Positions 353 to 28,814 of a DNA stretch of 64,000 nt are shown here, one piece after another (position 1 is the first letter of the stretch; each line of letters begins with the position of its first letter). The notes below the pieces were generated by a model, which was not told the origin of the DNA, did not search any database, and saw nothing but the letters and a program-made list of their open reading frames with translations. The position numbers were made by a program, and so were the translations under genes. Origin of the DNA: Candidatus Thorarchaeota archaeon (lineage in GTDB: Archaea > Asgardarchaeota > Thorarchaeia > Thorarchaeales > Thorarchaeaceae); the NCBI GenBank assembly GCA_011364985.1, contig RDOC01000007.1:1495-65494 (forward strand), given 5' to 3'.

Positions 353-1822
353 CTAAAGGCAACTACTTCTCCCATCATTCTTCTCCAATTGCCTTTTCTT
401 GTCATCGTCGAGTTCTCCTCTTGCATAGGACAGCAGTTGCCCCCGCTGCCTCACGTTTCTTATGAAAAGTCCCATTCTATACCTGCTCTTCAAAGTCAGA
501 AGTATCTCTCTTGAGAGGTAACGCTTCCTATAGACGAACTTCTCATATGCATCTGAAATCAATCTTTCCAGTATGCCAGTCTGCACTGAATCAGGATGGA
601 TGTCTGATACGAGGACTCCTGTTTCCCAGTATGCCTCTGGGTCCAAATATCCTTGATTGACAAGCTGATTCCAGATATCAGTCCCGGTGACTGCTCCCAG
701 CATGTTCAGTTGAATGAAGTCAATGTCGAGTTTCATGGAGAAATCAATAGTATTCTTTACTTCTTTCACTGTTTCACCAGGTGCTCCAACAATGAATGTG
801 CCTAGAATGATGTCTACACCTGCCTTACGACACGTTTCTGCCGCCTGTATGCTCATCTGTGGAGTTATTCTCTTGCCATATAAATCAAGGATTCTCTGAT
901 TTGCGCTTTCAAACCCAAGATACATGAGTCTACAACCACTTTTGACCATTGATCTGATCGTATGGCTATCAACCTGGTCCACTCGTCCTTCGCAAAGCCA
1001 ACTGAACTCAAGTTTACGTTCCCTTATTAGGTCACAAATCTTTAGTATGCGCTTCCTGTTCATGGTGAAACAATCATCGACAAAGAAGATGGTCTTGAAG
1101 CCCTCTACTAAGAGGTTCTCAATCTCATCCACTACATTCTCAGGACTTCTAGAACGCCACTTTCTACCTGCAAATAGACTGCAACTACAGAATGTACATG
1201 AAAATGGACAACCCCTAGAAGAAACCATAGACGCCAAATTGGGCCATCGCAGTCCTTCAACCTGCCCATACCACTCAGTCTTGACCAAGTCCATTGCAGG
1301 AGGTGGCAAAGCGTCTAAATCGGTTATGAATCTTCTAGGGGCGCCTCTCTTCACAATCCCATTCTCCCGATGGTAGATACCGCTTACAGCCTTAATATGT
1401 CCCCCGCTCTCTAGTGCTCTAACAAGCTCAATCATGGATAACTCACCTTCGCCCGTTATGGTGGAATCGATTTGGGTGTACTTTTTCATCATACGTTCCA
1501 CGTTGAGTGTGGCATGCACTCCTCCAAACACGATATGAGTATCAGGAAGCCGTTTCCTTATCATGGCGGCCAGCTCTGCTGCCTTTGATGCTTGCCATGT
1601 CATCATTGATAAACCAACTACACCGGGTGAGTACCTCTCTACTCTTTTCAATAACCGTTCGTCTGACAGATGTTCTCCAATTTGATCAATGAGCGTGACT
1701 TCAACTCCAGCTTCGCGCAACGAAGATGCTATATAGAGAAGACCAAGCGGAGGACTGAATGTTGGAGTTGCGAATCTGGAGTTGATATAATCTGGAGCAG
1801 GGAATATGAGACAGACTTTCAC
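353..1822 (-). CDS. B12-binding domain radical SAM protein (class B rSAM, methyltransferase-like)
   Basis: 489 aa. N-terminal MKVCLIFP.. cobalamin-binding-like domain, then a CPFSCTFCSC (CxxxCxxC) radical SAM cluster motif. GTG start at 1822. Confidence 0.85.
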   Translation of the reverse strand: MKVCLIFPAPDYINSRFATPTFSPPLGLLYIASSLREAGVEVTLIDQIGEHLSDERLLKRVERYSPGVVGLSMMTWQASKAAELAAMIRKRLPDTHIVFGGVHATLNVERMMKKYTQIDSTITGEGELSMIELVRALESGGHIKAVSGIYHRENGIVKRGAPRRFITDLDALPPPAMDLVKTEWYGQVEGLRWPNLASMVSSRGCPFSCTFCSCSLFAGRKWRSRSPENVVDEIENLLVEGFKTIFFVDDCFTMNRKRILKICDLIRERKLEFSWLCEGRVDQVDSHTIRSMVKSGCRLMYLGFESANQRILDLYGKRITPQMSIQAAETCRKAGVDIILGTFIVGAPGETVKEVKNTIDFSMKLDIDFIQLNMLGAVTGTDIWNQLVNQGYLDPEAYWETGVLVSDIHPDSVQTGILERLISDAYEKFVYRKRYLSREILLTLKSRYRMGLFIRNVRQRGQLLSYARGELDDDKKRQLEKNDGRSSCL

Positions 1823-1983
1823 TTCCTAGATTCTGCCGCGGTTCAAGATAAACGCATCTATCCCCTGTCTAAGTAGGAGTAAGGGCGGTGGAGAGAGGGT
1901 ATTTGGGGGGCTTATCCTCCTCGTATTGCTGAGATGGTGGATTTCTTTTGTCTATCAGTCTTACAAATCTCGTAATATTATAA

Positions 1984-2040
1984 ATTTAAATAAAAGTATC
2001 AGGTAATATATGATGGAATCAGCATTCGCACGATGAGGTG
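1984..2040 (+). promoter_or_regulatory. AT-rich TATA-like box (TTTAAATAAAAG) and Shine-Dalgarno GAGGTGG upstream of SPASM rSAM gene
   Basis: TTTAAATAAAAG at ~1984-1995. GAGGTG at 2035-2040, 6 nt before the ATG at 2046. Region is divergent with the rSAM gene. Confidence 0.4.
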
Positions 2041-2045
2041 GGAAA

Positions 2046-3200
2046 ATGCTTGTGACTGTCACTCACGACGAAATAAGAAGGCGAATTGGGGAAAGAAACA
2101 GGAATCCCCAACAGCGTCCATATGCAGCTATAATGAAATCTGCTGACACATGTAATAATTCCTGTACCTACTGCTATGTTGAACCACACTCAACGGTTCC
2201 CATAATGACAAAAGAAACAGCTGAGATTGCAATTAGAACGATTCTTGAATATGTTGGTCCTAACAGGCAAGTGAACTTTATCTGGCATGGTGGCGAGCCG
2301 TTGCTAGCAGGATTACCTTTCTTTAAACACATTGCTGATGTGTGCGACGAGTATGTTGAGAACAGAATCGAGAATTCCATTCAGACAAATGGTACTCTCT
2401 TGAATGAGGAATTCTTGGAGTTATGCGTGAATAGACACATTCTGATAAGCCTCAGCATAGACGGACCAAAAGATATCCATGACCTCATGCGGAAAGACAA
2501 AGGAGGTCGCGGAACATTCTACCAGGTAATGGATGCAGTGGCAATGATTCGAAATGTTGGTCTTCCAGTTGGCTGTGTTACCGTACTTCACCAGCAGAAT
2601 CTTCATCACATCGAACGGATGTACAAGTTCTTCAGGGACAATGACATTAACTTCCGAATCAATCCCATAGTGAAATCGGGGCGGGCAACAAGAGCATACA
2701 ACGAGCTATCTATTACACCCAAGGAGTACGGCGAAGCAATGTGCAAGCTTTTTGATCTTTGGTTCGAAGAAGACGGCCCTATTCAAATAGAACCACTCGA
2801 AACAATAGTTGGCAACTTAATAGGACCAACTGTATGGGGTTGCGATTATCATGGAACCTGCCTGTTAAGCATCATTTCGGTCAACCCTGACGGCGGATTA
2901 TATCCGTGCGGAAGGTTTGCTGGTCTGGAGAACTTCAAGTTAGGGGATATCAATATTAATTCGGATTTCGAGGCTATGTTTGAATCCAGTCTTTTCAAGA
3001 GACTTTCATCGAGGAGTCCTTTGACAGTTTCTGGGTGTTCTGATTGCGAGTTTGTTGAAATCTGCAATACCGGATGCATGGTGACAGCTTTCATGGGAAG
3101 AAATAGGATTGAAGATCCTGACTACTACTGTTACGGACGGCGGATGCTGTTTTCGCATATCTTCAATGCTCTAATTGGACATTTGCGAGATGTCCAATAG
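2046..3200 (+). CDS. Radical SAM/SPASM-domain protein (anaerobic sulfatase-maturase-like peptide-modifying enzyme)
   Basis: CNNSCTYCY (Cx3Cx2C), GGEPLL, TNGTLL, SIDGP motifs. C-terminal Cys-rich SPASM region (CDYHGTC.., YPCGRFAG, CSDCEFVEICNTGCM). Confidence 0.85.
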   Translation: MLVTVTHDEIRRRIGERNRNPQQRPYAAIMKSADTCNNSCTYCYVEPHSTVPIMTKETAEIAIRTILEYVGPNRQVNFIWHGGEPLLAGLPFFKHIADVCDEYVENRIENSIQTNGTLLNEEFLELCVNRHILISLSIDGPKDIHDLMRKDKGGRGTFYQVMDAVAMIRNVGLPVGCVTVLHQQNLHHIERMYKFFRDNDINFRINPIVKSGRATRAYNELSITPKEYGEAMCKLFDLWFEEDGPIQIEPLETIVGNLIGPTVWGCDYHGTCLLSIISVNPDGGLYPCGRFAGLENFKLGDININSDFEAMFESSLFKRLSSRSPLTVSGCSDCEFVEICNTGCMVTAFMGRNRIEDPDYYCYGRRMLFSHIFNALIGHLRDVQ

Positions 3201-3228
3201 ACAATGAGTGAATGGATGAGTGAATAAT

Positions 3229-3438
3229 ATGGGAAAAGTGAAGAAAGAGAATATTATTGAAGTACTAGGTGAGAATGTGAAGACCGAAGACCTGAAGTCA
3301 TCAGTACAGAGGATTATTGGCCATAGGCGCTTTAAGGGACCTATCGAGTTCGAGCTACGGCTTTCTGAGGAAGACAAGAAGCGTCATGATCCAACAACTA
3401 GCTATTACAACGTCTACCGGTATGCTTTCTTCGATTGA
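3229..3438 (+). CDS. Small protein (69 aa from ATG) with aromatic-rich C-terminus ..TTSYYNVYRYAFFD; candidate precursor peptide
   Basis: ORF immediately 3' of the SPASM gene on the same strand. Protein-like composition (K/E-rich). The track start at 3220 is GTG; first ATG is at 3229. Confidence 0.35.
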   Translation: MGKVKKENIIEVLGENVKTEDLKSSVQRIIGHRRFKGPIEFELRLSEEDKKRHDPTTSYYNVYRYAFFD

Positions 3439-3607
3439 GCCTAGCGTATGGGATAATGAAACGGATAATCTGAAGAAGGAAACACGAGAAACAGATGCAA
3501 TTATCTGGATTCGTATGCCGAAGAGCTTTCAGATTGATTCAGTGCGAAAGCTTGGTCTTGAGATGGATGTATGCCTTGACGATACCTGTACTTGTGCTCC
3601 TACCTAA
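3422..3607 (+). CDS. Small ORF (62 aa from ATG 3422, or 30 aa from ATG 3515) with Cys-rich C-terminus ..EMDVCLDDTCTCAPT
   Basis: Downstream half of track ORF 3317..3607. Only this part has protein-like composition. Overlaps the previous ORF's last 17 nt in another frame. No clear SD. Confidence 0.2.
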   Translation: MLSSIEPSVWDNETDNLKKETRETDAIIWIRMPKSFQIDSVRKLGLEMDVCLDDTCTCAPT

Positions 3608-3846
3608 ACTAAGGGTACTGGTTTAGTGATATAAAACCCAAAAGGAATCAATCTTAAAGAACTACTGAGAAGAGATGGATTCATGCCAAGGGTGGAGTGC
3701 TTTGGATACACATGCAATGCCTAGGTTGAATCGGATTCAAGGCAAGTGGAAGACTTCGAAGTATACCGACAAGATTGAGCTTAGCTGCTTTCTCTGTCAA
3801 GAGATAGCTCGAAATGGAGGCAGCTGGAGTGGCGGTGCAAAAGGAA

Positions 3847-4200
3847 CTAATTTGACGGATCATATCTGACCTGTGCTAATGAGTTTAGATCATTCAGGTC
3901 TTTTCTGACGCCTCCCATCAGTTCTCTCTCGGTGACTTTGAGTTTTGTCCTATAAGCCGATTCATCTGCAATGGATTGCATGATGAGTACATGAGGTAAA
4001 TCATTATCGGACTCGAAAAGGATTGTCTGATGGTTCTCTTCATTTTCAACGTTTGTACTCGCGATGATACTACCATTCAATTCTCCTATCCTTGTAATTG
4101 GTATAGCAGGTGTCACACACACGTAAGGGAAACTCTGGTCTTGTACATTGTAGTTGAGGAGATTGAACTCCATCATGGTCAAACTGCAACTTATTTCCAC
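3847..4200 (-). CDS. Hypothetical protein (117 aa, GTG start), overlaps 3' end of next gene in another frame
   Basis: ORF-track only. The frame stays open upstream of the GTG. Could be a frame-shifted continuation of 4070..4534 or a spurious call. Confidence 0.15.
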   Translation of the reverse strand: MEISCSLTMMEFNLLNYNVQDQSFPYVCVTPAIPITRIGELNGSIIASTNVENEENHQTILFESDNDLPHVLIMQSIADESAYRTKLKVTERELMGGVRKDLNDLNSLAQVRYDPSN

Positions 4201-4534
4201 ATATATTGCATCTGTAAAGAGCTTCGATTCTGAACTTGATTTCTTGAGATGGACAACTGTACACCTTCACATTGCGCTTTGAACTGCCCAGTTCTCTCAT
4301 ATCTCCAAGGGCTCGCATGGAGTGCAATATAGGATACATTCCAATAAGACTCTCTGTGCAAATGCCTTCTGGAGATCTCCAACTGAATTCAAATTCCTGC
4401 CCCACTCTATGGTTGGCACGACAATTTCCCTCATCGACAACTGTGACTCTAAATGCAACTGCTTCCTCCCAAATATCACGAAGTCTTAGTAGCAGATCCT
4501 TCTCAGATTGATTCCTTGTAGTCATTACTACCAC
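4070..4534 (-). CDS. TIGR04076-like protein with C-terminal CxxC..CxxC zinc ribbon
   Basis: RVTVVDEGNCRANHRVGQEFEF..PEGICTESL..YP..CPSQEIKFRIE matches the remembered TIGR04076 pattern (C..H.G.EF..P.G.C..CP...F.I.R). C-terminal RCNICGN..CDTCY. Confidence 0.5.
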   Translation of the reverse strand: MVVMTTRNQSEKDLLLRLRDIWEEAVAFRVTVVDEGNCRANHRVGQEFEFSWRSPEGICTESLIGMYPILHSMRALGDMRELGSSKRNVKVYSCPSQEIKFRIEALYRCNICGNKLQFDHDGVQSPQLQCTRPEFPLRVCDTCYTNYKDRRIEW

Positions 4535-4882: not shown

Positions 4883-5866
4883 ATGCTACCCGACCCTGTG
4901 ATTTGGCTTGTTCTCTTTATAGCAAGTTATATTGCAATCTACTCTCTGGCTGATTTCATAATTGATACTTTGGGGGATATTAGCGAATCCTTTTGCATAG
5001 CTCCCATAGTATTGGGACTGCTTCTTCTCGGAATTGACTTGGAAGAAAGCATTGTTTCATTAATCGCAGCAGTTGACGGTCTTGCTTACTTGTCATTGGG
5101 TAATCTCATTGGAAACACAGTGATAGCGATTGGGATTGCATTTGGATTGCCTGCGCTCTATCTCAAGGCAGAGATCGACCAGCTCCCGCGATTCTACTAT
5201 GCTGAGCTAATCGTTGCCGGGATATTTGTCCTGATTTCAATGATTCTAACAGATTATCTGTTTGTCTTTGGCCTTTTGAGCATCATCCTCTTTGCTGCTC
5301 ATCTGGCGTACACATATCGAACACAAAGGGCGTTTCAATCAACAAGGGTGCATACTGTAATAGACACGCCAAAATCTGACTTGGACAGTGAAATAGATGC
5401 CCAAGCGACCAAGCATGATCGTACGTGGGCGGGATCCAAACTGCTGTTGGCACTCCTTGTCGTATTCTTGGCTGCTGAAGTCTTGGTGACCAGTGCCGAG
5501 GAACTTGTTCTTCTAACGGGATTGAATGAATCTTTCTTTGGATTGATTATTATGGCGGCTGTGACAAATGTTGAGGAATTCTGGTTGGTTGTCAAATCAA
5601 TTCAAAAGGGCCATGTTGCATTGGGTGTGAGTGCGCAGGTTGGCAAGATACTCTGGAATACCACCTTGATCTTTGGACTCTGCAGCCTGTTGCTAGTTCA
5701 ATTCAGATTTGAGATAGTAATGTTGCTGAGCTCAATTCTTTCTCTCTTTGCGCTGGTGTTATTGGCAGTGAATCTCTCTCAGAATCGATTGTCAAGGGCA
5801 GCTGGTATTGGCTATACCACAATTCTAGTAGCTTTCCTGATTATGAACTCGTTCTTTGCTTTCTGA
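4883..5866 (+). CDS. Ca2+/Na+ antiporter (CaCA family) membrane protein
   Basis: 327 aa polytopic protein with two alpha-repeat-like segments (GNLIGNTV.. and AAVTNVEEF..) and an acidic loop between the halves. Confidence 0.65.
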   Translation: MLPDPVIWLVLFIASYIAIYSLADFIIDTLGDISESFCIAPIVLGLLLLGIDLEESIVSLIAAVDGLAYLSLGNLIGNTVIAIGIAFGLPALYLKAEIDQLPRFYYAELIVAGIFVLISMILTDYLFVFGLLSIILFAAHLAYTYRTQRAFQSTRVHTVIDTPKSDLDSEIDAQATKHDRTWAGSKLLLALLVVFLAAEVLVTSAEELVLLTGLNESFFGLIIMAAVTNVEEFWLVVKSIQKGHVALGVSAQVGKILWNTTLIFGLCSLLLVQFRFEIVMLLSSILSLFALVLLAVNLSQNRLSRAAGIGYTTILVAFLIMNSFFAF

Positions 5867-5991: not shown

Positions 5992-7140
5992 ATGAAATGG
6001 CTAATCTTTCTAACTAATCGCATTTTCGTTTTATTCACAGTCAGATACTTGGATGAGAAGACTGAAAATAGACCAAGCAGTGACATTGTCATGCCAATTG
6101 AGTTCCATCCTATGGGAGCCAAGGTTCTCATATCACATTTACGAAGAGTGCATGACGGGAGCCCTCTATCGGAGCGGGAGATCAATGATATACTAGAACA
6201 ACCGGATATTTATCTCTGGATTTCAGTCTATGATGAATGGATGAAGGGATCTAAATCCGAATTTAGAGATATTCTTTGTTCATTGCACAAAGATTCCATG
6301 AATGACTTGAGTAAATGGGGACAACATATCAATCAAGGACTGAGAAATTCCCTATCCAGGCTTGACGAGCTTGAGCAAGCATTGAACCATCTGACGCGCT
6401 ATGACTGGGGGCTGGCTGCATCAAACACCCTTCAATTCCTCCCCAAAGACACCCCCCTTAATGCTCACGTAATAATGACAATTGATGGCTTTAATGGAGG
6501 TATGTTCCATGATGACAATATGTTTCTCTCTCTAACGATCATAGGTCCGGATACCATGAGCCCTCAGTATTTCACACATGAATTTCATCATATTGGATTG
6601 GGATATTGGTGGGAACGGAACCCTGTCGTCAAGAAATTTGGGCAAGAAAAGGCCTCACGAGAGGCTTGGTTGTTGCGTTTGTACCATTATATGGTCAGTG
6701 AAGGCCTTGCTAACGCATTCTGTTCTCCAGCCATGTTGAGCCAAACTGAACATGACGATGAACAAAATCGAAAACACAACAAGATCATCAGAGAATACGA
6801 CTCACAATTCAATGAGATCTTGTATTCGCTGGAAACCATCCTTGAACAGATTATTGGGCATAGCAATCCCGAAATAACCGAACAATATGAGGAGTTCTCA
6901 CTTGACATGAAAACCCACTACTTGCCCAAGGGCCATTTTCTTTCAGGTAGGATGATTCAAATAATGGATGAATCACCAGCAGTTTCACGTGAAGAAATCA
7001 TCGATCTTGTGAGGGAGCCATTCAGATTCTTTCAATTATACAACCGGGCTGCAAGAGATCGGGGGCATAGGGAAGTTTCCAGGCCTCTTCTTGATTCAGT
7101 CGAAGGAGCAATTCGTTCCATGAAGAAGAACGTCAATTAA
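5992..7140 (+). CDS. Hypothetical protein with HExxH motif (putative zinc metallopeptidase-like)
   Basis: HEFHHIG motif, then a downstream EGLANAF segment. True start may be the ATG at ~6091 (MPIEFHP..). Confidence 0.4.
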   Translation: MKWLIFLTNRIFVLFTVRYLDEKTENRPSSDIVMPIEFHPMGAKVLISHLRRVHDGSPLSEREINDILEQPDIYLWISVYDEWMKGSKSEFRDILCSLHKDSMNDLSKWGQHINQGLRNSLSRLDELEQALNHLTRYDWGLAASNTLQFLPKDTPLNAHVIMTIDGFNGGMFHDDNMFLSLTIIGPDTMSPQYFTHEFHHIGLGYWWERNPVVKKFGQEKASREAWLLRLYHYMVSEGLANAFCSPAMLSQTEHDDEQNRKHNKIIREYDSQFNEILYSLETILEQIIGHSNPEITEQYEEFSLDMKTHYLPKGHFLSGRMIQIMDESPAVSREEIIDLVREPFRFFQLYNRAARDRGHREVSRPLLDSVEGAIRSMKKNVN

Positions 7141-21201: not shown

Positions 21202-22695
21202 TTATCGGTTCAGCTTCTCAAGTTGTTTCAGGGTCCACAAGCCCCTCTCGGTCAATGCGTAGTAGCTTCTTTGTCGCCTCTGATATGTTTGCTCTATCCG
21301 AGTGCTCTTGATTAGCCCGCTACTAGTCAGTTCAGAAAGATGCTGGTATACACTTGGAATTTTGATGCATATTCTGTACTCATCCATTAGTTCTCTCCAA
21401 ATTCCGTACCCATAAGATTCGCCCTCAGAGAGAACTTCAAGAATTCGCATTTTAGTTTGACCCAGTTTGGTAGTGACTCTCCTGCCCTCTACTCTACTAA
21501 GAAGACGTTCCAGCTCTCTTCTGCCTTTAACAAACGTCCTAGCAATGTCGGGATATTTGAGCCCCATTCCAGTTATTGCACATACGACACTCTGGTCTTG
21601 ACTAATCTTCCCCAAAAGAACTAGCCTTTTCAGAGCCGCGATTGTCGTAGCTGAAGCTGGTTCGGCAAAGACCCCTTCCCGTCTAGCTAGTTGTTTGACC
21701 GCATCCAGAATCTCCCTATCAGACACAGAAATTGCTAGTCCATTTGATTCTGCGATTGCTCTTAGCGCAGTGTGCCCACAGAGAGGGCTCTTCACACTGA
21801 TATCATAAGCTATTGTCGATTCGGATGTTGCAGGAGAAACCGTTCTTTCTCCTTTCTCGAAGGCCTCAACGATGGGAGCACAACCGCTAGCCTGTGCGCC
21901 TACGATTCTGGTATGACAAACGTCTATCATCCCAATGGTTTGTAGTTCGATCAATCCTTTCCAAATCATCGATATGTGTCCTCCATTTCCCATAGGGGCA
22001 ATAATCCAGTCTGGGGAAGTCCAGTCTAGCTGTTCACATATCTCATAGACTGTTGTCTTTTCTCCCTCCATAAAATGCGGATTGGAGGAGGCGACGCAGT
22101 GGCTCATCTTGCCTTCTTGTCGAGCTCTTGCTAAGGCCTCATCATGGTCCTTGACAATCTCTACATCAGCGGCATAGGCTAGAATCTGATAGAACTTGCC
22201 TATGTCCACATTTCCCGTCTGCCCTATGAACACCTTGCTCTTAAGACCTGCACGGGCAGCATAGGCAACAAGAGATGCGGCAAGATTTCCCGTGGACCCA
22301 CAACAGACAGAAGCAATTCTGTGTTCTTTGGCTGCAGAGATCTCTACTGCTGTTCCTCGGTCAATAAAGGCTCCAGTTGGATTGGTGGTCTCATCCTTGA
22401 GGAACAGTTCGTCAAGTTCAAGGTCCTTTGCGAGTCCATCGCACTTATGAAGGTACGTCCCTCCTTCTCCTAGAGATATAATGTTGGTCTCGCTTCGGAC
22501 TGGAAGCAGATCGAGATACTTCCAAACACCGGGTCTACGACCTCTTAATCTCCTTGATGTGAAATGACTCTTCGCTCTCTCAAGATCATAGACTACCTCC
22601 AAGGCTCCTCCACATTGTACGCAGGAACTTCGATGGGTTTCCGAGTCATAGACTGACCCACATACCGTACATGTGAAACCAGTTTGGAGAAACAT
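21202..22695 (-). CDS. Threonine-synthase-like PLP-fold protein with N-terminal Zn ribbon and C-terminal PadR-type wHTH domain; canonical PLP lysine replaced (GAFIDRG)
   Basis: CTVCGS..CVQCGG ribbon. LKDETTNPTGAFIDRG..CGSTGN aligns to ThrC NPTGSFKDRG but has I at the Lys position. C-terminal RILEVLSEGESYGYGI..YYALTERG matches the PadR family. Confidence 0.8.
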   Translation of the reverse strand: MFLQTGFTCTVCGSVYDSETHRSSCVQCGGALEVVYDLERAKSHFTSRRLRGRRPGVWKYLDLLPVRSETNIISLGEGGTYLHKCDGLAKDLELDELFLKDETTNPTGAFIDRGTAVEISAAKEHRIASVCCGSTGNLAASLVAYAARAGLKSKVFIGQTGNVDIGKFYQILAYAADVEIVKDHDEALARARQEGKMSHCVASSNPHFMEGEKTTVYEICEQLDWTSPDWIIAPMGNGGHISMIWKGLIELQTIGMIDVCHTRIVGAQASGCAPIVEAFEKGERTVSPATSESTIAYDISVKSPLCGHTALRAIAESNGLAISVSDREILDAVKQLARREGVFAEPASATTIAALKRLVLLGKISQDQSVVCAITGMGLKYPDIARTFVKGRRELERLLSRVEGRRVTTKLGQTKMRILEVLSEGESYGYGIWRELMDEYRICIKIPSVYQHLSELTSSGLIKSTRIEQTYQRRQRSYYALTERGLWTLKQLEKLNR

Positions 22696-26633: not shown

Positions 26634-28814
26634 CTAGTTTCCTTTATGAAGTCGTTTGTGCAAGTGATTGAACGAAATAACTCCCTTCTTACTTATGTTC
26701 AAATCCAATTCTCTCTCAAGTTGCTTCATTGCACCTGCGAACCAATCGTATTGGATATTGCTACTTGATGCAATTCTAAGTATATTTCCAATGAATCTTA
26801 TGACTGCTTCTTTTCTGGTTCGTGCCATGTTGCTATCGAGGGCAAACCGTAAGGCACGTTCCAAAAGCTGAGCCGGAGTTGAGAGAGAAGTCAATATGTC
26901 CAGTCTTGGCTTACAAAACAACACGAGATCCATGTCAAGAGTGTCTTTCTGTCGAATATGCGGGTTCATCTTGTACTCGCTGTTAACTGGGAATGAAGTG
27001 TTGATTGAGAAACCGCTTTCTCTTAATGCACACAGAATCGCCCACCATGCCTGCAATTTGGAGTGATGGAACGTGAACGCTAGAGTTCCTTCTTCCTTTA
27101 GCACTCTTCGGCACTCTTTGAAGACAGAGACCATAATCTGTTGGTATTTTTTGCTATCCTTACCCATTCCTAAATTTACTACTGCCTCGTTCTCAGGTGA
27201 AACATACTTCTCTTCAAAATACTCGTTCTCAATCAGCAATCTTAGCCAAACGTAGAAGAAATTGGAAAGTTCTGAGTAGTGAACATTGTCAAAATACGGC
27301 GGATCTGTGATTACCAAGTCAACGGAATTGTCAGGAATCTCCGGCACATGCGATGAATCACGACAGAATAGCATGGCGCCTCGCTTTTCCTTGGTGAGAT
27401 GCTGGAAAGTGTCTACAAATTTAGCTTCTATCCTCTCTGTAGGAGTGAAGACTGTACGAATGCGGCCACTTGCATCCTTGTACTTCTCAAAAGGTCTCCG
27501 ACAATACAGCTTCGCTTTGAGATACCGCTGATAGCAGTTAACAAAGGTCCCAGCACCCATATTCGCAGATCCCCAGAAGGAGTTCTCTACCGGTGTTGTT
27601 GTCAGAGGAAATGAGTGATATGTGAACAGATGGTGAAGCTTTCTGTGCGGATAGTTGTAGGGTGTCATCATGTTATTATACTCAAGGCTATTTGACAAAA
27701 TGGTTACGAAAGCATCTCTATACTCATATGATGTTTTTCCAAGAGACTGCTCAACGAAGTTCAATGCAAGAAGCTGGCGTGAACTGAATATCTGAGAATA
27801 GTATCTATATCCGTGTGTTCGCCATCGTCTAGACGAAGACCCCTTAGGAATGCTCTGATGAGGCAGTGTCATGTCTTCCTTCGTTTCTCGAAATTGTCTT
27901 TCGATTTCCTTGATTCTGGAATAGTCCTTAGAATCAGGTGACTTGTAGAGTCGTTTCTTACAACTGGGACACCAATATTCAATCGCAACAATCCTTTCAG
28001 TCATCAGTCGGCTGTTTCCTGCTACTTCAGCAAGCTTCTGCCCTGCTTCGCCGCAATTTGGACAGCAGAACCTTCCGTGGTCGAACGTCCCCTTCATGGG
28101 ATCAAATTCAGCATTGCAGGCGTTGCACGTACAGATTCCGCTCCCCTCCCATGTGTTCAAACTAAAGCAATTGGCGCAAAAGATGGATGCCTTGTTTTCC
28201 TCAGATATAGGCTTGTTTCTTTTCAATCCCTTATTCAGGAGAGTTCTCTTGTAAAGGGGCACTTGCTTGCTGCACTTGGGACAGATGATCTCTCTAATCC
28301 AAAATACATGGAGTCCTTCGCAGTTCTTTCTTCCACATACAACGCAGTCTGTCCGATATATTTCCCGAATGCTTTCCCCAACTGTTTCATTCAGATTGTC
28401 GAAGATGGATGAAAGCTGCTGCAGATCAATGGGTCTAAGGCTTTCGCGTACAATCCAATATGAAACAGGATTTATATCACAGCCTATTACCTTCGCTCCA
28501 AGCCGATTCGCCTCAACGAGAGTTGTTCCTCCTCCCATGAACGGATCGAACACAATGAGACGTTCGAGATTGGGCGGGTGAAAGTACTTACTGGATTCCA
28601 GCAAGCCTCCGGTTTCATCGATTTCGAAGAGACCATCGTCTAATCCTGCAGCCAGCAGTATGATAGACCGGAATTGCGCTCCTGACCTTCTGGCCCACCA
28701 TTTATGCAGCGAATAAACTGGTCGATAGTGTTGACGCTTTCCAGACTCATCCTGTGCAAGCTTACTGATTGTCCTCTCAATCAATGACTTGAACGGTTGC
28801 CTATTTCTTTTCAT
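26634..28814 (-). CDS. DNA (N6-adenine/N4-cytosine) methyltransferase with internal Zn ribbons, DUF1156-like N-terminus
   Basis: N-terminal ..LHKWWARRSGAQFR.. Motif I VFDPFMGGGTTLVEA. Central CPKC..CANC..CTCNAC..CPNC ribbons. Motif IV DLVITDPPYFDNVHY. Confidence 0.75.
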   Translation of the reverse strand: MKRNRQPFKSLIERTISKLAQDESGKRQHYRPVYSLHKWWARRSGAQFRSIILLAAGLDDGLFEIDETGGLLESSKYFHPPNLERLIVFDPFMGGGTTLVEANRLGAKVIGCDINPVSYWIVRESLRPIDLQQLSSIFDNLNETVGESIREIYRTDCVVCGRKNCEGLHVFWIREIICPKCSKQVPLYKRTLLNKGLKRNKPISEENKASIFCANCFSLNTWEGSGICTCNACNAEFDPMKGTFDHGRFCCPNCGEAGQKLAEVAGNSRLMTERIVAIEYWCPSCKKRLYKSPDSKDYSRIKEIERQFRETKEDMTLPHQSIPKGSSSRRWRTHGYRYYSQIFSSRQLLALNFVEQSLGKTSYEYRDAFVTILSNSLEYNNMMTPYNYPHRKLHHLFTYHSFPLTTTPVENSFWGSANMGAGTFVNCYQRYLKAKLYCRRPFEKYKDASGRIRTVFTPTERIEAKFVDTFQHLTKEKRGAMLFCRDSSHVPEIPDNSVDLVITDPPYFDNVHYSELSNFFYVWLRLLIENEYFEEKYVSPENEAVVNLGMGKDSKKYQQIMVSVFKECRRVLKEEGTLAFTFHHSKLQAWWAILCALRESGFSINTSFPVNSEYKMNPHIRQKDTLDMDLVLFCKPRLDILTSLSTPAQLLERALRFALDSNMARTRKEAVIRFIGNILRIASSSNIQYDWFAGAMKQLERELDLNISKKGVISFNHLHKRLHKGN

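What the first reader, a model, noticed from the sequence alone, without database searches (positions are those of the whole stretch)
353..4534. Divergent B12-rSAM / SPASM-rSAM locus with two small ORFs and a TIGR04076-like Zn-ribbon protein: candidate RiPP-like or lipid-tailoring cluster
A class B (cobalamin-binding) radical SAM gene (353..1822, -) is divergently paired with an anSME-like SPASM radical SAM gene (2046..3200, +). The two share an AT-rich promoter region. Directly downstream on the + strand are two small ORFs with composition suited to rSAM-modified core peptides. A TIGR04076-like protein with a C-terminal zinc ribbon (4070..4534, -) follows, and a CaCA-type antiporter lies beyond. 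SPASM maturases next to short ORFs are the hallmark of RiPP loci (sactipeptides, ranthipeptides, triceptides/cyclophanes, PQQ/mycofactocin-like). Alternatively, archaeal B12-rSAM and rSAM enzymes tailor isoprenoid lipids, and two geranylgeranyl reductases are elsewhere in this window. Without homology searches the substrate is open.
Basis: partly seen in the sequence, partly recalled or inferred. Interest (0 to 1): 0.7.

Follow-up and report, generated by a model that had tools for sequence, protein, structure and literature searches.

The report
Archaeal dynobactin-like peptide maturation cassette

Summary
All the reported genes are present. Only two form a demonstrable unit: the SPASM radical-SAM gene (2046-3200, +) and the small ORF 28 nt downstream (3229-3438, 69 aa, ending ...SYYNVYRYAFFD).

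- **Conservation:** every one of 13 distinct loci encoding a 45-59 % identical enzyme has an adjacent small ORF with the same leader motif. All share an invariant Y-[K/R]-Y-A-F-F core, seen in 50 precursors, none named by Pfam or NCBIfam.
- **Closest relative:** the enzyme's best family match is the dynobactin maturase DynA, at 287 bits against a cut-off of 450. Gene order, leader motif and core register (N-V-Y-x-Y-x-F against dynobactin W-N-S-N-V-H-S-Y-R-F) also match.
- **Not a sulfatase maturase:** the Asp after the third auxiliary-cluster Cys is Gly, the score is below cut-off, and no sulfatase was found.
- **Not linked:** the B12 radical-SAM gene, the TIGR04076 gene, the antiporter and the other small ORFs are not conserved with the cassette. 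The lipid reading has no support.

Best reading: a new Tyr-based variant of dynobactin-type cyclophane RiPPs. The cross-link positions and the target are inferred, not shown.

The parts
2046..3200 (+). Radical SAM/SPASM peptide maturase (384 aa), DynA-like but outside the DynA equivalog
   Evidence: PF04055 at 77.8 bits and PF13186 at 23.2 bits. Best NCBIfam hit is DynA NF041298 at 286.8 bits (cut-off 450); anSME TIGR03942 scores 246.8 (cut-off 349). The AF2 model has pLDDT 92.4 and TM 0.80 to both anSMEcpe and the cyclophane synthase ChlB. There are 40 homologues at 43-58 % identity.
2151..2174 (+). CX3CX2C radical-SAM cluster motif (C36, C40, C43)
   Evidence: Invariant in the 40-sequence alignment A1.
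2841..3131 (+). SPASM region with eight conserved Cys (C266, C272, C288, C331, C334, C340, C344, C362) for two auxiliary [4Fe-4S] clusters; Gly289 sits where anSME has its Asp
   Evidence: All eight are invariant in A1 and align with the Cys of anSMEcpe. Gly is found in 50 of 50 family members, Asp in 46 anSME-like loci.
3229..3438 (+). Precursor peptide gene (69 aa from ATG 3229; the ORF is open from GTG 3220): MGKVKKENIIEVLGENVKTEDLKSSVQRIIGHRRFKGPIEFELRLSEEDKKRHDPTTSYYNVYRYAFFD
   Evidence: It starts 28 nt after the maturase stop. Its hexamer coding score of 0.056 is in the top 0.2 % of the null. A homologous small ORF lies next to the enzyme in 13 of 13 related loci. A profile search found 45 further members. 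NCBI annotates it as hypothetical protein EAX81_06870.
3253..3333 (+). Leader recognition motif (IIEVLGENVKTEDLKSSVQRIIGHRRF; family consensus h-x-V-L-G-x-x-V-x-E-x-x-L-K-x-S-L-K-D-V-L-x-K-R-G-L)
   Evidence: G14, L22 and R33 are invariant in alignment A2. The motif aligns with the L-N-x-A-L-x-D-V-F-G motif of DynA-type precursors: hhalign on full precursors gives probability 93 %, P 3e-7; on leaders alone P 0.006.
3403..3435 (+). Predicted core Y-Y-N-V-Y-R-Y-A-F-F-D; the invariant hexapeptide YRYAFF is at 3415-3432
   Evidence: Across 50 precursors Y6, Y8, F10 and F11 are invariant, A9 is 49/50, K/R7 is 48/50, Y2 is 39/50, N4 is 40/50 and V/I5 is 40/50. The register matches dynobactin A WNSNVHSYRF and DynA-family cores WSGN[VI]Y[KR]Y[SN]F.
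1960..2020 (.). AT-rich TATA-like stretch 30-85 nt upstream of the maturase ATG; a probable archaeal promoter region
   Evidence: Read from the sequence and the GC dip to 0.377. Function is inferred, not tested.
353..1822 (-). Class B (cobalamin) radical SAM gene, divergent neighbour; membership of the cassette unproven and considered unlikely
   Evidence: PF02310 and PF04055 are present. No NCBIfam equivalog is reached; the best are BchE at 203 bits (cut-off 481) and HpnJ at 199 (cut-off 578). A B12-rSAM is absent from 11 of the 12 other family loci, and the one in L168 is 28 % identical and lies in what looks like another peptide operon.

Best explanation
Genes 2046-3200 and 3229-3438 form a two-gene RiPP cassette.

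Shown:
- The 69-aa precursor has a conserved N-terminal leader and a C-proximal core, Y-Y-N-V-Y-R-Y-A-F-F.
- The neighbouring enzyme has one radical-SAM [4Fe-4S] site and a full SPASM domain with two auxiliary clusters.
- The pair is conserved as a unit across a family of at least 40 enzyme clusters and 50 precursors.
- Enzyme, gene order, leader motif and core register are all homologous to the dynobactin system.

Inferred mechanism:
- The leader docks on the enzyme.
- Reductive cleavage of SAM gives a 5'-deoxyadenosyl radical.
- That radical abstracts a C-beta hydrogen from acceptor residues, by analogy with dynobactin's Asn4 and Tyr8.
- The oxidised C-beta is captured by an upstream Tyr side chain, and the auxiliary clusters take up the electron.
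- The result would be small side-chain macrocycles: Tyr6 to Tyr8 within the invariant Y-x-Y, and Tyr2 to Asn4 within Y-x-N.

An unidentified protease would then remove the leader. The rigid, beta-strand-like aromatic peptide is most plausibly a secreted antagonistic or signalling molecule. A BamA-type target, as for dynobactin, is possible but untested.

The B12 radical-SAM gene, the TIGR04076 gene and the other small ORFs are neighbours, not demonstrated parts.
For: - **Enzyme class:** Pfam Radical_SAM and SPASM domains. Eight SPASM Cys plus CX3CX2C are invariant in 40 homologues and align with the anSMEcpe cluster ligands. The AF2 model has pLDDT 92.4 and TM 0.80 to the cyclophane synthase ChlB in complex with its leader, and to anSMEcpe.
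- **Precursor:** a small ORF with the Y-x-Y-A-F-F core lies next to the enzyme in all 13 distinct loci examined. These are the window, L002, L003, L005, L007, L087, L167-L173. Their GC content ranges from 27 to 64 %.
- **Family size:** a profile search found 45 further precursor clusters.
- **Co-diversification:** four precursor subtypes track enzyme subclades in the NJ tree.
- **Coding status:** the hexamer score is coding-like, and codon usage and GC match the host window.
- **Link to dynobactin, enzyme:** DynA is the top NCBIfam hit.
- **Link to dynobactin, true DynA loci:** bona fide DynA loci score 551-610 bits. They carry the precursor downstream, with cores WNSNVHSYRF or WSGN[VI]Y[KR]Y[SN]F.
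- **Link to dynobactin, precursor:** profile-profile alignment of the precursors gives 93 % probability, with leader motif and core in register.
- **Dynobactin chemistry:** the cross-links are Trp(i)-C6 to Asn(i+3)-C-beta and His-N to Tyr-C-beta (PMC11002830).
- **Precedent for Tyr donors:** radical-SAM enzymes are known to form Tyr-C3 to C-beta(i+2) cyclophanes, for example YxdB and YhhB and ChlB on a YDR motif.
Against: - No modified peptide has been observed; the cross-link positions and types are extrapolated.
- The enzyme is below the DynA cut-off (287 against 450). The precursor does not hit the dynobactin peptide model NF041295, whereas the Photorhabdus peptide scores 88 bits.
- Trp1, one of the two dynobactin donor residues, is absent.
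- Eleven of 50 precursors lack Y-x-N, so the first ring cannot be universal.
- No conserved protease, transporter or immunity gene accompanies the pair.
- The strictly invariant core would also fit a cofactor-like or signalling peptide.
- Assignment of the contig to Thorarchaeota rests on the NCBI label of a MAG. I could not verify it phylogenetically.
Confidence: 0.85

Rival explanations
1. The SPASM enzyme is an anaerobic sulfatase-maturating enzyme (anSME) that makes formylglycine in a sulfatase, and the small ORF is incidental.
For: TIGR03942 scores 246.8 bits. The closest solved structure by sequence is anSMEcpe at 159 bits, with TM 0.80.
Against: - The score is below the cut-off of 349.
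- True DynA enzymes score equally high on the anSME model (232-256 bits), so this score level does not discriminate.
- The Asp following the third Aux-I Cys (C276-D277 in anSMEcpe; its role as the proposed catalytic base is from my own knowledge) is Gly in 50 of 50 family members. It is Asp in 46 anSME-like loci.
- No sulfatase domain was found in the 30 ORFs of the window scanned against Pfam, which include most of the largest.
- The adjacent conserved precursor is unexplained by this reading.
- DarE is also most similar to anSME in sequence yet forms cyclophanes (PMC10288494).
Confidence: 0.03
2. The whole 353-4534 region is one cluster. The B12 radical-SAM enzyme additionally tailors the same peptide (for example by C-methylation), and the TIGR04076 protein is an accessory factor.
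For: The B12 gene is divergently adjacent with a shared 224-bp spacer. B12-rSAM genes lie within a few kb of the SPASM gene in four related loci: L055 (a Sphingomonas DynA locus), L092, L099 and L168. The B12 enzyme shows partial matches to RiPP methyltransferase models: ApyD at 169 bits and TIGR03975 at 120 bits.
Against: - All of those matches are far below their cut-offs.
- Eleven of the 12 other family loci have no B12-rSAM near the cassette.
- The four hits are only 28-31 % identical, which is paralogue level. The one in L168 sits in what looks like a separate operon with its own 83-aa peptide.
- TIGR04076 has no homologue in any related locus. It is convergently oriented, 630 nt away.
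Confidence: 0.12
3. The two radical-SAM enzymes tailor archaeal isoprenoid lipids.
For: The host is labelled an archaeon. Two geranylgeranyl-reductase-family genes are in the window. B12-rSAM lipid enzymes exist (TIGR04072, HpnR, HpnJ) and give partial hits. The radical-SAM lipid enzyme GDGT-MAS appears only as a distant fold match, TM 0.45.
Against: - The reductase genes are 29 and 53 kb away.
- The lipid-family scores are far below their cut-offs: 136 against 360, 156 against 650 and 199 against 578.
- The SPASM enzyme's relatives are found in bacteria with 27-64 % GC, always next to a YAFF peptide.
Confidence: 0.02
4. The cassette is a genuine RiPP system, but the product is a peptide-derived cofactor or signal (as for PQQ or mycofactocin) rather than an antibiotic-like beta-strand mimic.
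For: The core is unusually invariant (YKYAFF in 50 of 50 precursors) across enzymes only 43-58 % identical. No conserved exporter or immunity gene was found. Genomic neighbourhoods differ from locus to locus.
Against: No conserved partner enzyme that would use a cofactor was seen. The C-terminus is variable (free FF, +D/E/S, +DCLG, or a follower of about 30 aa), unlike mycofactocin, which needs a C-terminal Tyr (my own knowledge). The only characterised close relatives (dynobactin, darobactin, xenorceptides) are BamA-binding antibiotics.
Confidence: 0.25

Closest known systems
Dynobactin system (DynA-type rSAM/SPASM maturase NF041298 plus dynobactin A family peptide NF041295; Photorhabdus)
   Same: - DynA is the best family hit of the enzyme.
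- The gene order is the same, with the maturase followed by the precursor.
- The leader motif is homologous, and the core register N-V-[Y/H]-x-Y-x-F sits at or near the C-terminus.
- The residue after the third Aux-I Cys is not Asp in either family.
   Different: - The enzyme is only about 33 % identical and scores 287 bits against a cut-off of 450.
- The precursor does not match NF041295.
- There is no Trp1; a Tyr stands two residues before the Asn instead.
- Position 6 is Tyr, not His, and an extra invariant Ala-Phe-Phe follows.
- The enzyme has a family-specific N-terminal extension of about 27 aa.
- The host is labelled an Asgard archaeon.
- Product and target are unknown.
Darobactin (DarE/DarA) and xenorceptides (XyeB/XyeA), the 'bamabactins'
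   Same: These are rSAM/SPASM enzymes that build 3-residue side-chain macrocycles on an aromatic-rich C-terminal core ending in Phe. The products are beta-strand mimics.
   Different: DarE scores 125 bits against a cut-off of 650, and XyeB 90 against 450. Those cores are Trp-based, and darA precedes its transporter and maturase genes (own knowledge). The O2-dependent ether chemistry described for DarE (PMC9055067, PMC10705402) is unlikely in an anaerobe.
Triceptide 3-residue cyclophane-forming enzymes (ChlB, YhhB, YxdB, GrrM/OscB, FxsB)
   Same: - The core contains aromatic-x-x triplets (Y-Y-N, Y-R-Y, Y-A-F).
- Tyr-C3 to C-beta(i+2) links are an established activity.
- The predicted fold matches the ChlB-leader complex with TM 0.80.
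   Different: All the HMM scores are below their cut-offs: YhhB 186 against 445, GrrM 133 against 310, FxsB 115 against 370. The core is a single invariant motif rather than repeated variable triplets.
Anaerobic sulfatase-maturating enzyme (anSMEcpe, PDB 4K36-4K39; TIGR03942)
   Same: It is the closest solved structure, with the same cluster ligands and overall fold.
   Different: The score is below cut-off, the Asp after the third Aux-I Cys is replaced by Gly, there is no sulfatase partner in the window, and a dedicated small peptide substrate is present.

Membership tests
Radical SAM / SPASM superfamily | CX3CX2C cluster motif and PF04055 domain | tested here: met
   C36, C40 and C43 are invariant. 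PF04055 scores 77.8 bits against a cut-off of 29.5.
Radical SAM / SPASM superfamily | C-terminal SPASM domain with Cys ligands for two auxiliary [4Fe-4S] clusters | tested here: met
   PF13186 scores 23.2 bits against a cut-off of 21.5. Eight Cys are invariant and align with those of anSMEcpe. The AF2 model has TM 0.80 to anSMEcpe and ChlB.
DynA dynobactin maturase (NF041298) | Score at or above the curated equivalog cut-off (450 bits) | tested here: not met
   286.8 bits. Bona fide members L030, L034, L040 and L055 score 551-610.
Dynobactin A family peptide (NF041295) | Precursor matches the model (cut-off 40 bits) | tested here: not met
   No hit at E <= 0.01 for the window precursor. The Photorhabdus tasmaniensis precursor scores 88.4 bits.
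Dynobactin-type RiPP | Maturase followed directly by a precursor whose core lies at or near the C-terminus | tested here: met
   The gap is 28 nt and the core occupies the last 11-12 residues. The arrangement is the same in L034 and L055.
Dynobactin-type RiPP | Core W1-x-x-N4-V5-[H/Y]6-x-Y8-x-F10, with Trp1 and His6 as donor residues | tested here: inconclusive
   N4, V5, Y6, Y8 and F10 are in register, but Trp1 is absent and Tyr stands at position 2. Whether Tyr can take the donor roles is untested.
Dynobactin-type RiPP | Trp-C6 to Asn-C-beta and His-N to Tyr-C-beta cross-links in the product; BamA as target | not testable with these tools
   This needs mass spectrometry or NMR of the modified peptide, and bioassays.
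Anaerobic sulfatase maturase (TIGR03942) | Score at or above 349.45 bits | tested here: not met
   246.8 bits.
Anaerobic sulfatase maturase (TIGR03942) | Asp after the third Aux-I Cys (C276-D277 of anSMEcpe) | tested here: not met
   The window has C288-G289. Gly is found in 50 of 50 family members, Asp in 46 anSME-like loci. The catalytic role of D277 is from my own knowledge of the anSMEcpe structure paper.
Anaerobic sulfatase maturase (TIGR03942) | Sulfatase substrate gene nearby | tested here: not met
   No PF00884 hit in the 30 ORFs of the window scanned against Pfam, which include most of the largest. The rest of the genome was not available.
Triceptide 3-CyFE families (XyeB, GrrM/OscB, YhhB, FxsB) | Score above the respective cut-offs | tested here: not met
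   XyeB 90 against 450, GrrM 133 against 310, YhhB 186 against 445, FxsB 115 against 370.
Triceptide 3-CyFE families (XyeB, GrrM/OscB, YhhB, FxsB) | Aromatic-x-x triplets in the core | tested here: met
   Y-Y-N, Y-R-Y and Y-A-F occur in the window core.
Class B (cobalamin-dependent) radical SAM (gene 353-1822) | N-terminal B12-binding domain plus radical SAM domain | tested here: met
   PF02310 at 83.3 bits and PF04055 at 97 bits. No functional equivalog is reached.
TIGR04076 family (gene 4070-4534) | Score at or above 33 bits | tested here: met
   40 bits over residues 28-105. The family has no established function; one genome annotation guesses 'redox or iron cluster metabolism' (PMC8667426).

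The most novel reading that the evidence does not exclude
An Asgard archaeon, together with a scattered set of uncultured bacteria, makes a Trp-free, all-Tyr/Phe dynobactin-type bicyclic peptide built on the invariant core Y-K/R-Y-A-F-F. It is formed anaerobically through a Tyr-to-Tyr-C-beta link not yet described for this enzyme clade. The product acts as a beta-strand mimic against BamA/Omp85-type insertases of neighbouring diderm bacteria. That would make it an archaeal weapon against bacteria and a new bamabactin scaffold.
Probability: 0.15. Interest if true: 0.85.

Novelty: new variant of a known kind. Interest (0 to 1): 0.62.

Why it matters
Dynobactin and darobactin are among the few natural scaffolds that kill Gram-negative bacteria from outside, through BamA. 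A sister family with a different, strictly conserved, Tyr-based core would matter in two ways:
- It widens the chemical space for that target.
- It offers new radical-SAM cross-linking chemistry, with Tyr as both donor and benzylic acceptor, presumably without O2.

Finding it in a genome labelled Thorarchaeota adds a concrete, testable example of a radical-SAM RiPP in Asgard archaea. It also bears on archaeal-bacterial antagonism. The family (at least 50 precursors and 40 enzyme clusters) has no Pfam or NCBIfam model, so genome annotation and standard rule-based mining would label the peptide only as hypothetical.

Tried and rejected
- A single-sequence search with the 72-aa ORF found only itself. 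The family appeared only after I collected neighbours of enzyme homologues and searched with a profile.
- The metagenome-contig scan was saturated by generic radical-SAM patterns and gave only one close locus.
- Rfam and tRNA scans of the window found nothing.
- Full-text searches for KYAFF, RYAFF, YAFFD and YKYAF returned only irrelevant papers. Searches on Asgard or archaeal radical-SAM RiPPs found nothing describing this family.
- The cluster look-up gave no taxonomy for most homologues.
- The second small ORF (3386-3607) has no homologue among 1.84 billion representatives. ORF 3675-3869 has a non-coding-like hexamer score. Both are rejected as supported precursors.
- The anSME, lipid-tailoring and 'one big cluster' readings were considered and rejected or down-weighted (see the rival explanations).
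- The dynobactin mechanism paper PMC11695099 is not held, and a search for 'dynobactin' with 'quinone methide' found nothing. No mechanistic detail from it is used.
- The sigma-70 promoter and terminator scanner was not used, because the host is archaeal.

Full report
**1. What is in the sequence**

- 353-1822 (-), 489 aa: B12-binding plus Radical_SAM domains.
- 2046-3200 (+), 384 aa: Radical_SAM plus SPASM domains.
- 4070-4534 (-), 154 aa: passes TIGR04076 (40 bits, cut-off 33) and ends in CxxC...CxxC.
- 4883-5866 (+): a Na/Ca-exchanger-type protein.
- 5992-7140 (+): a DUF5700 putative peptidase.

The 224-bp spacer between the divergent radical-SAM genes holds an AT-rich, TATA-like stretch at about 1960-2020. 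Several small ORFs lie between 3200 and 4070.

The enzyme sequence is identical to NCBI protein NHI84005.1. That protein comes from a 66-kb contig of a MAG labelled Candidatus Thorarchaeota archaeon. I could not verify the label independently. Codon usage and GC of the cassette match the rest of the window.

**2. The key result: a conserved maturase-precursor pair**

The SPASM enzyme has about 40 homologue clusters at 43-58 % identity. I fetched the genomic context of twelve of them.

In every one of the 13 distinct loci, counting the window, a small ORF lies next to the enzyme. It is directly downstream in 11 loci and upstream in 2. The ORFs share a leader motif (h-x-V-L-G-x-x-V-x-E-x-x-L-K-x-S-L-K-D-V-L-x-K-R-G-L) and a C-proximal Y-x-Y-A-F-F motif.

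In the window this is ORF 3220-3438. From ATG 3229, 28 nt after the enzyme's stop codon, it encodes 69 aa ending ...DPTTSYYNVYRYAFFD. Its hexamer coding score is typical of real genes.

A profile built from eight precursors retrieved 45 further members. Sources call them 'hypothetical' or give no name, and none hits Pfam or NCBIfam.

Conservation across the 50 precursors:

| Core position | Residue | Count |
|---|---|---|
| 2 | Tyr | 39/50 |
| 4 | Asn | 40/50 |
| 5 | Val/Ile | 40/50 |
| 6, 8 | Tyr | 50/50 |
| 7 | Lys/Arg | 48/50 |
| 9 | Ala | 49/50 |
| 10, 11 | Phe | 50/50 |

Four precursor subtypes track the enzyme subclades in a neighbour-joining tree:
- ending at FF, or FF plus one residue;
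- ending in FFDC[L/I/V][G/S];
- FFG followed by about 30 more residues;
- short 28-32-aa peptides encoded upstream of the enzyme.

The host loci range from 27 to 64 % GC. They include an Ignavibacteriales MAG and an Acidobacteria MAG.

**3. Relationship to known systems**

The best NCBIfam match of the enzyme is the dynobactin maturase DynA at 286.8 bits (cut-off 450). Next come anSME at 246.8 (cut-off 349), YhhB at 186 and TIGR04083 at 175.

Genuine DynA-family loci recovered in the genome scan score 551-610 bits. These are Photorhabdus tasmaniensis, Sphingomonas, Flavihumibacter and Rhodothalassium. They carry the precursor downstream, as the window does.
- The Photorhabdus peptide ends in WNSNVHSYRF, the dynobactin A sequence.
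- Other loci with the same downstream core motif end in WSGN[VI]Y[KR]Y[SN]F or close variants.

Aligned on Asn-Val, the window core reads x-Y-Y-N-V-Y-R-Y-A-F-F. It shares N4, V5, Y8 and F10 with dynobactin. It shares Y6-[K/R]7-Y8-x-F10 with the wider DynA family.

The leader motifs also correspond: L-K-x-S-L-K-D-V-L-x-K-R-G-L against L-N-x-A-L-x-D-V-F-G. Profile-profile alignment of whole precursors gives 93 % probability (P = 3e-7), with both elements in register. Leaders alone give only P = 0.006.

In dynobactin the cross-links are Trp(i)-C6 to Asn(i+3)-C-beta and His-N to Tyr-C-beta (PMC11002830).

**4. Why it is not an anSME**
- The score is below cut-off, and true DynA enzymes score just as high on the anSME model.
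- The alignment to anSMEcpe shows that all cluster-ligand Cys are conserved. The residue after the third Aux-I Cys (C276-D277 in anSMEcpe) is Gly289 here.
- Across my collection that position is Gly in 50 of 50 family members and Ala in 12 of 13 DynA-type enzymes. It is Asp in 46 loci of the anSME type, such as Bacteroidales and Vibrio.
- No sulfatase domain is present in the 30 ORFs of the window scanned against Pfam, which include most of the largest.
- The AF2 model (pLDDT 92.4) matches anSMEcpe and the cyclophane synthase ChlB bound to its leader equally well, at TM 0.80.
- It is already documented that DarE resembles anSME in sequence while doing cyclophane chemistry (PMC10288494).

**5. 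What does not belong**

I ran tblastn with the window's other proteins against about 170 related loci.
- There was no homologue of the TIGR04076 protein, the antiporter, DUF5700, or ORFs 3317-3607, 3675-3869 and 185-334.
- B12-rSAM hits appeared in only four loci, at 28-31 % identity.
- In L168 the B12 enzyme lies in what looks like a separate operon, with two more radical-SAM genes and its own 83-aa peptide.

The B12 enzyme reaches no functional NCBIfam model; the best are BchE at 203 bits (cut-off 481) and HpnJ at 199 (cut-off 578). It may still act on the peptide, but nothing shows it.

ORF 3386-3607 looks coding by hexamers, yet has no homologue other than itself among 1.84 billion representatives. 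ORF 3675-3869 looks non-coding.

The geranylgeranyl reductases are 29 and 53 kb away, so the lipid hypothesis has no support.

**6. Mechanism: shown versus inferred**

Shown:
- a radical-SAM/SPASM enzyme with three cluster sites;
- a dedicated, co-diversifying peptide with a leader and an invariant aromatic core;
- homology to the dynobactin pair.

Inferred:
- leader-guided binding;
- C-beta hydrogen abstraction at Asn4 and Tyr8, by analogy with dynobactin;
- capture by Tyr2 and Tyr6 to give two small macrocycles, with Y6-x-Y8 universal and Y2-x-N4 present in about 80 % of members.

Tyr-C3 to C-beta(i+2) links are established for other radical-SAM cyclophane synthases. Whether the Tyr6-Tyr8 link is C-C or C-O, and whether Phe10 or Phe11 also take part, cannot be told from sequence.

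No conserved protease or exporter accompanies the pair. Accessory genes vary between loci:
- a sedolisin-like protease in L003;
- ABC transporters in L170;
- a protein of about 285 aa with only weak acetyltransferase hits in L167 and L170.

**7. Novelty and verdict**

The kind of system is known: a radical-SAM cyclophane RiPP of the dynobactin type. This family nevertheless fails both curated dynobactin models, lacks the Trp donor, and has its own invariant Tyr/Phe core. I found no description of it in Pfam, NCBIfam or the searchable literature.

I rate it a new variant of a known kind, made more interesting by its presence in a putative Asgard archaeon. The rest of the proposed cluster is unsupported.

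Noticed in passing
L008, L009, L010, L011, L012, L013 (archaeal MAG loci): This is a wider uncharacterised radiation of DynA-like rSAM/SPASM enzymes. Three of the six were scored and give 271-334 bits on NF041298, below cut-off. All six have 'YPCGRF' with Gly at the anSME Asp position. They occur in Methanosarcinales, Woesearchaeota, Aenigmatarchaeota and an unclassified archaeon. In the three loci read (L008, L011, L013) small downstream ORFs follow with a similar leader pattern (a conserved Gly, spaced hydrophobic residues, a later Arg). The cores of L008 and L013 are Tyr/His/Asp-rich.
   Followed up: partly
L055 6113-6313, L040 6129-6545, L030 6155-6556, L037 3949-4287, L044 6146-6598, L048 4441-4938: Loci outside Photorhabdus carry cores WSGN[VI]Y[KR]Y[SN]F, with Tyr in place of dynobactin's His6. 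L030, L040 and L055 pass the DynA model; L037, L044 and L048 were placed by core motif and tree position only. They occur in Sphingomonas, Flavihumibacter, Rhodothalassium, Nocardioides, Pyrinomonadaceae and Caldimonas. None matches the NCBIfam dynobactin peptide model.
   Followed up: partly
L168 1525-5380 (-): Next to a YAFF cassette lies a second peptide operon. It has an 83-aa ORF ending ...ELLCANGGCGVASA, followed by three radical-SAM genes, one of them B12-binding.
   Followed up: no
window 3847-4200 (-): This ORF (up to 117 aa) has a coding-like hexamer score and overlaps the last 130 nt of the TIGR04076 gene in another frame. Within the overlap its frame scores better (0.08) than the zinc-ribbon frame (-0.15). 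It could be a frameshift or an extra small gene; this is unresolved.
   Followed up: partly
window 3386-3607 (+): This 61-73-aa ORF ends ...DVCLDDTCTCAPT and overlaps the 3' end of the precursor gene. It is coding-like by hexamers but an orphan: only a self-hit among 1.84 billion representatives.
   Followed up: yes
window 2046-2126 (+), residues 1-27 of the maturase: This N-terminal extension is specific to the YAFF family (consensus W-I-G-x-K-x-x-D-P-x-x-R-P-F). It lies outside the region matched by the DynA and anSME models.
   Followed up: no
window 21202-22695 (-): A PLP-dependent enzyme domain (PALP) is fused to a C-terminal PadR-type transcription-regulator domain.
   Followed up: no
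window 26634-28814 (-): A 726-aa protein has N6/N4 DNA-methylase hits and a weak, below-threshold DUF1156 hit. It may be part of a restriction or defence system.
   Followed up: no
L055 6491-10183: In Sphingomonas qilianensis the DynA-type pair is followed by ORFs of 299, 260, 656 and 210 aa. The 656-aa ORF is a B12-rSAM 29 % identical to the window's; the others were not scanned against any family library. This may be a larger or composite peptide cluster.
   Followed up: no
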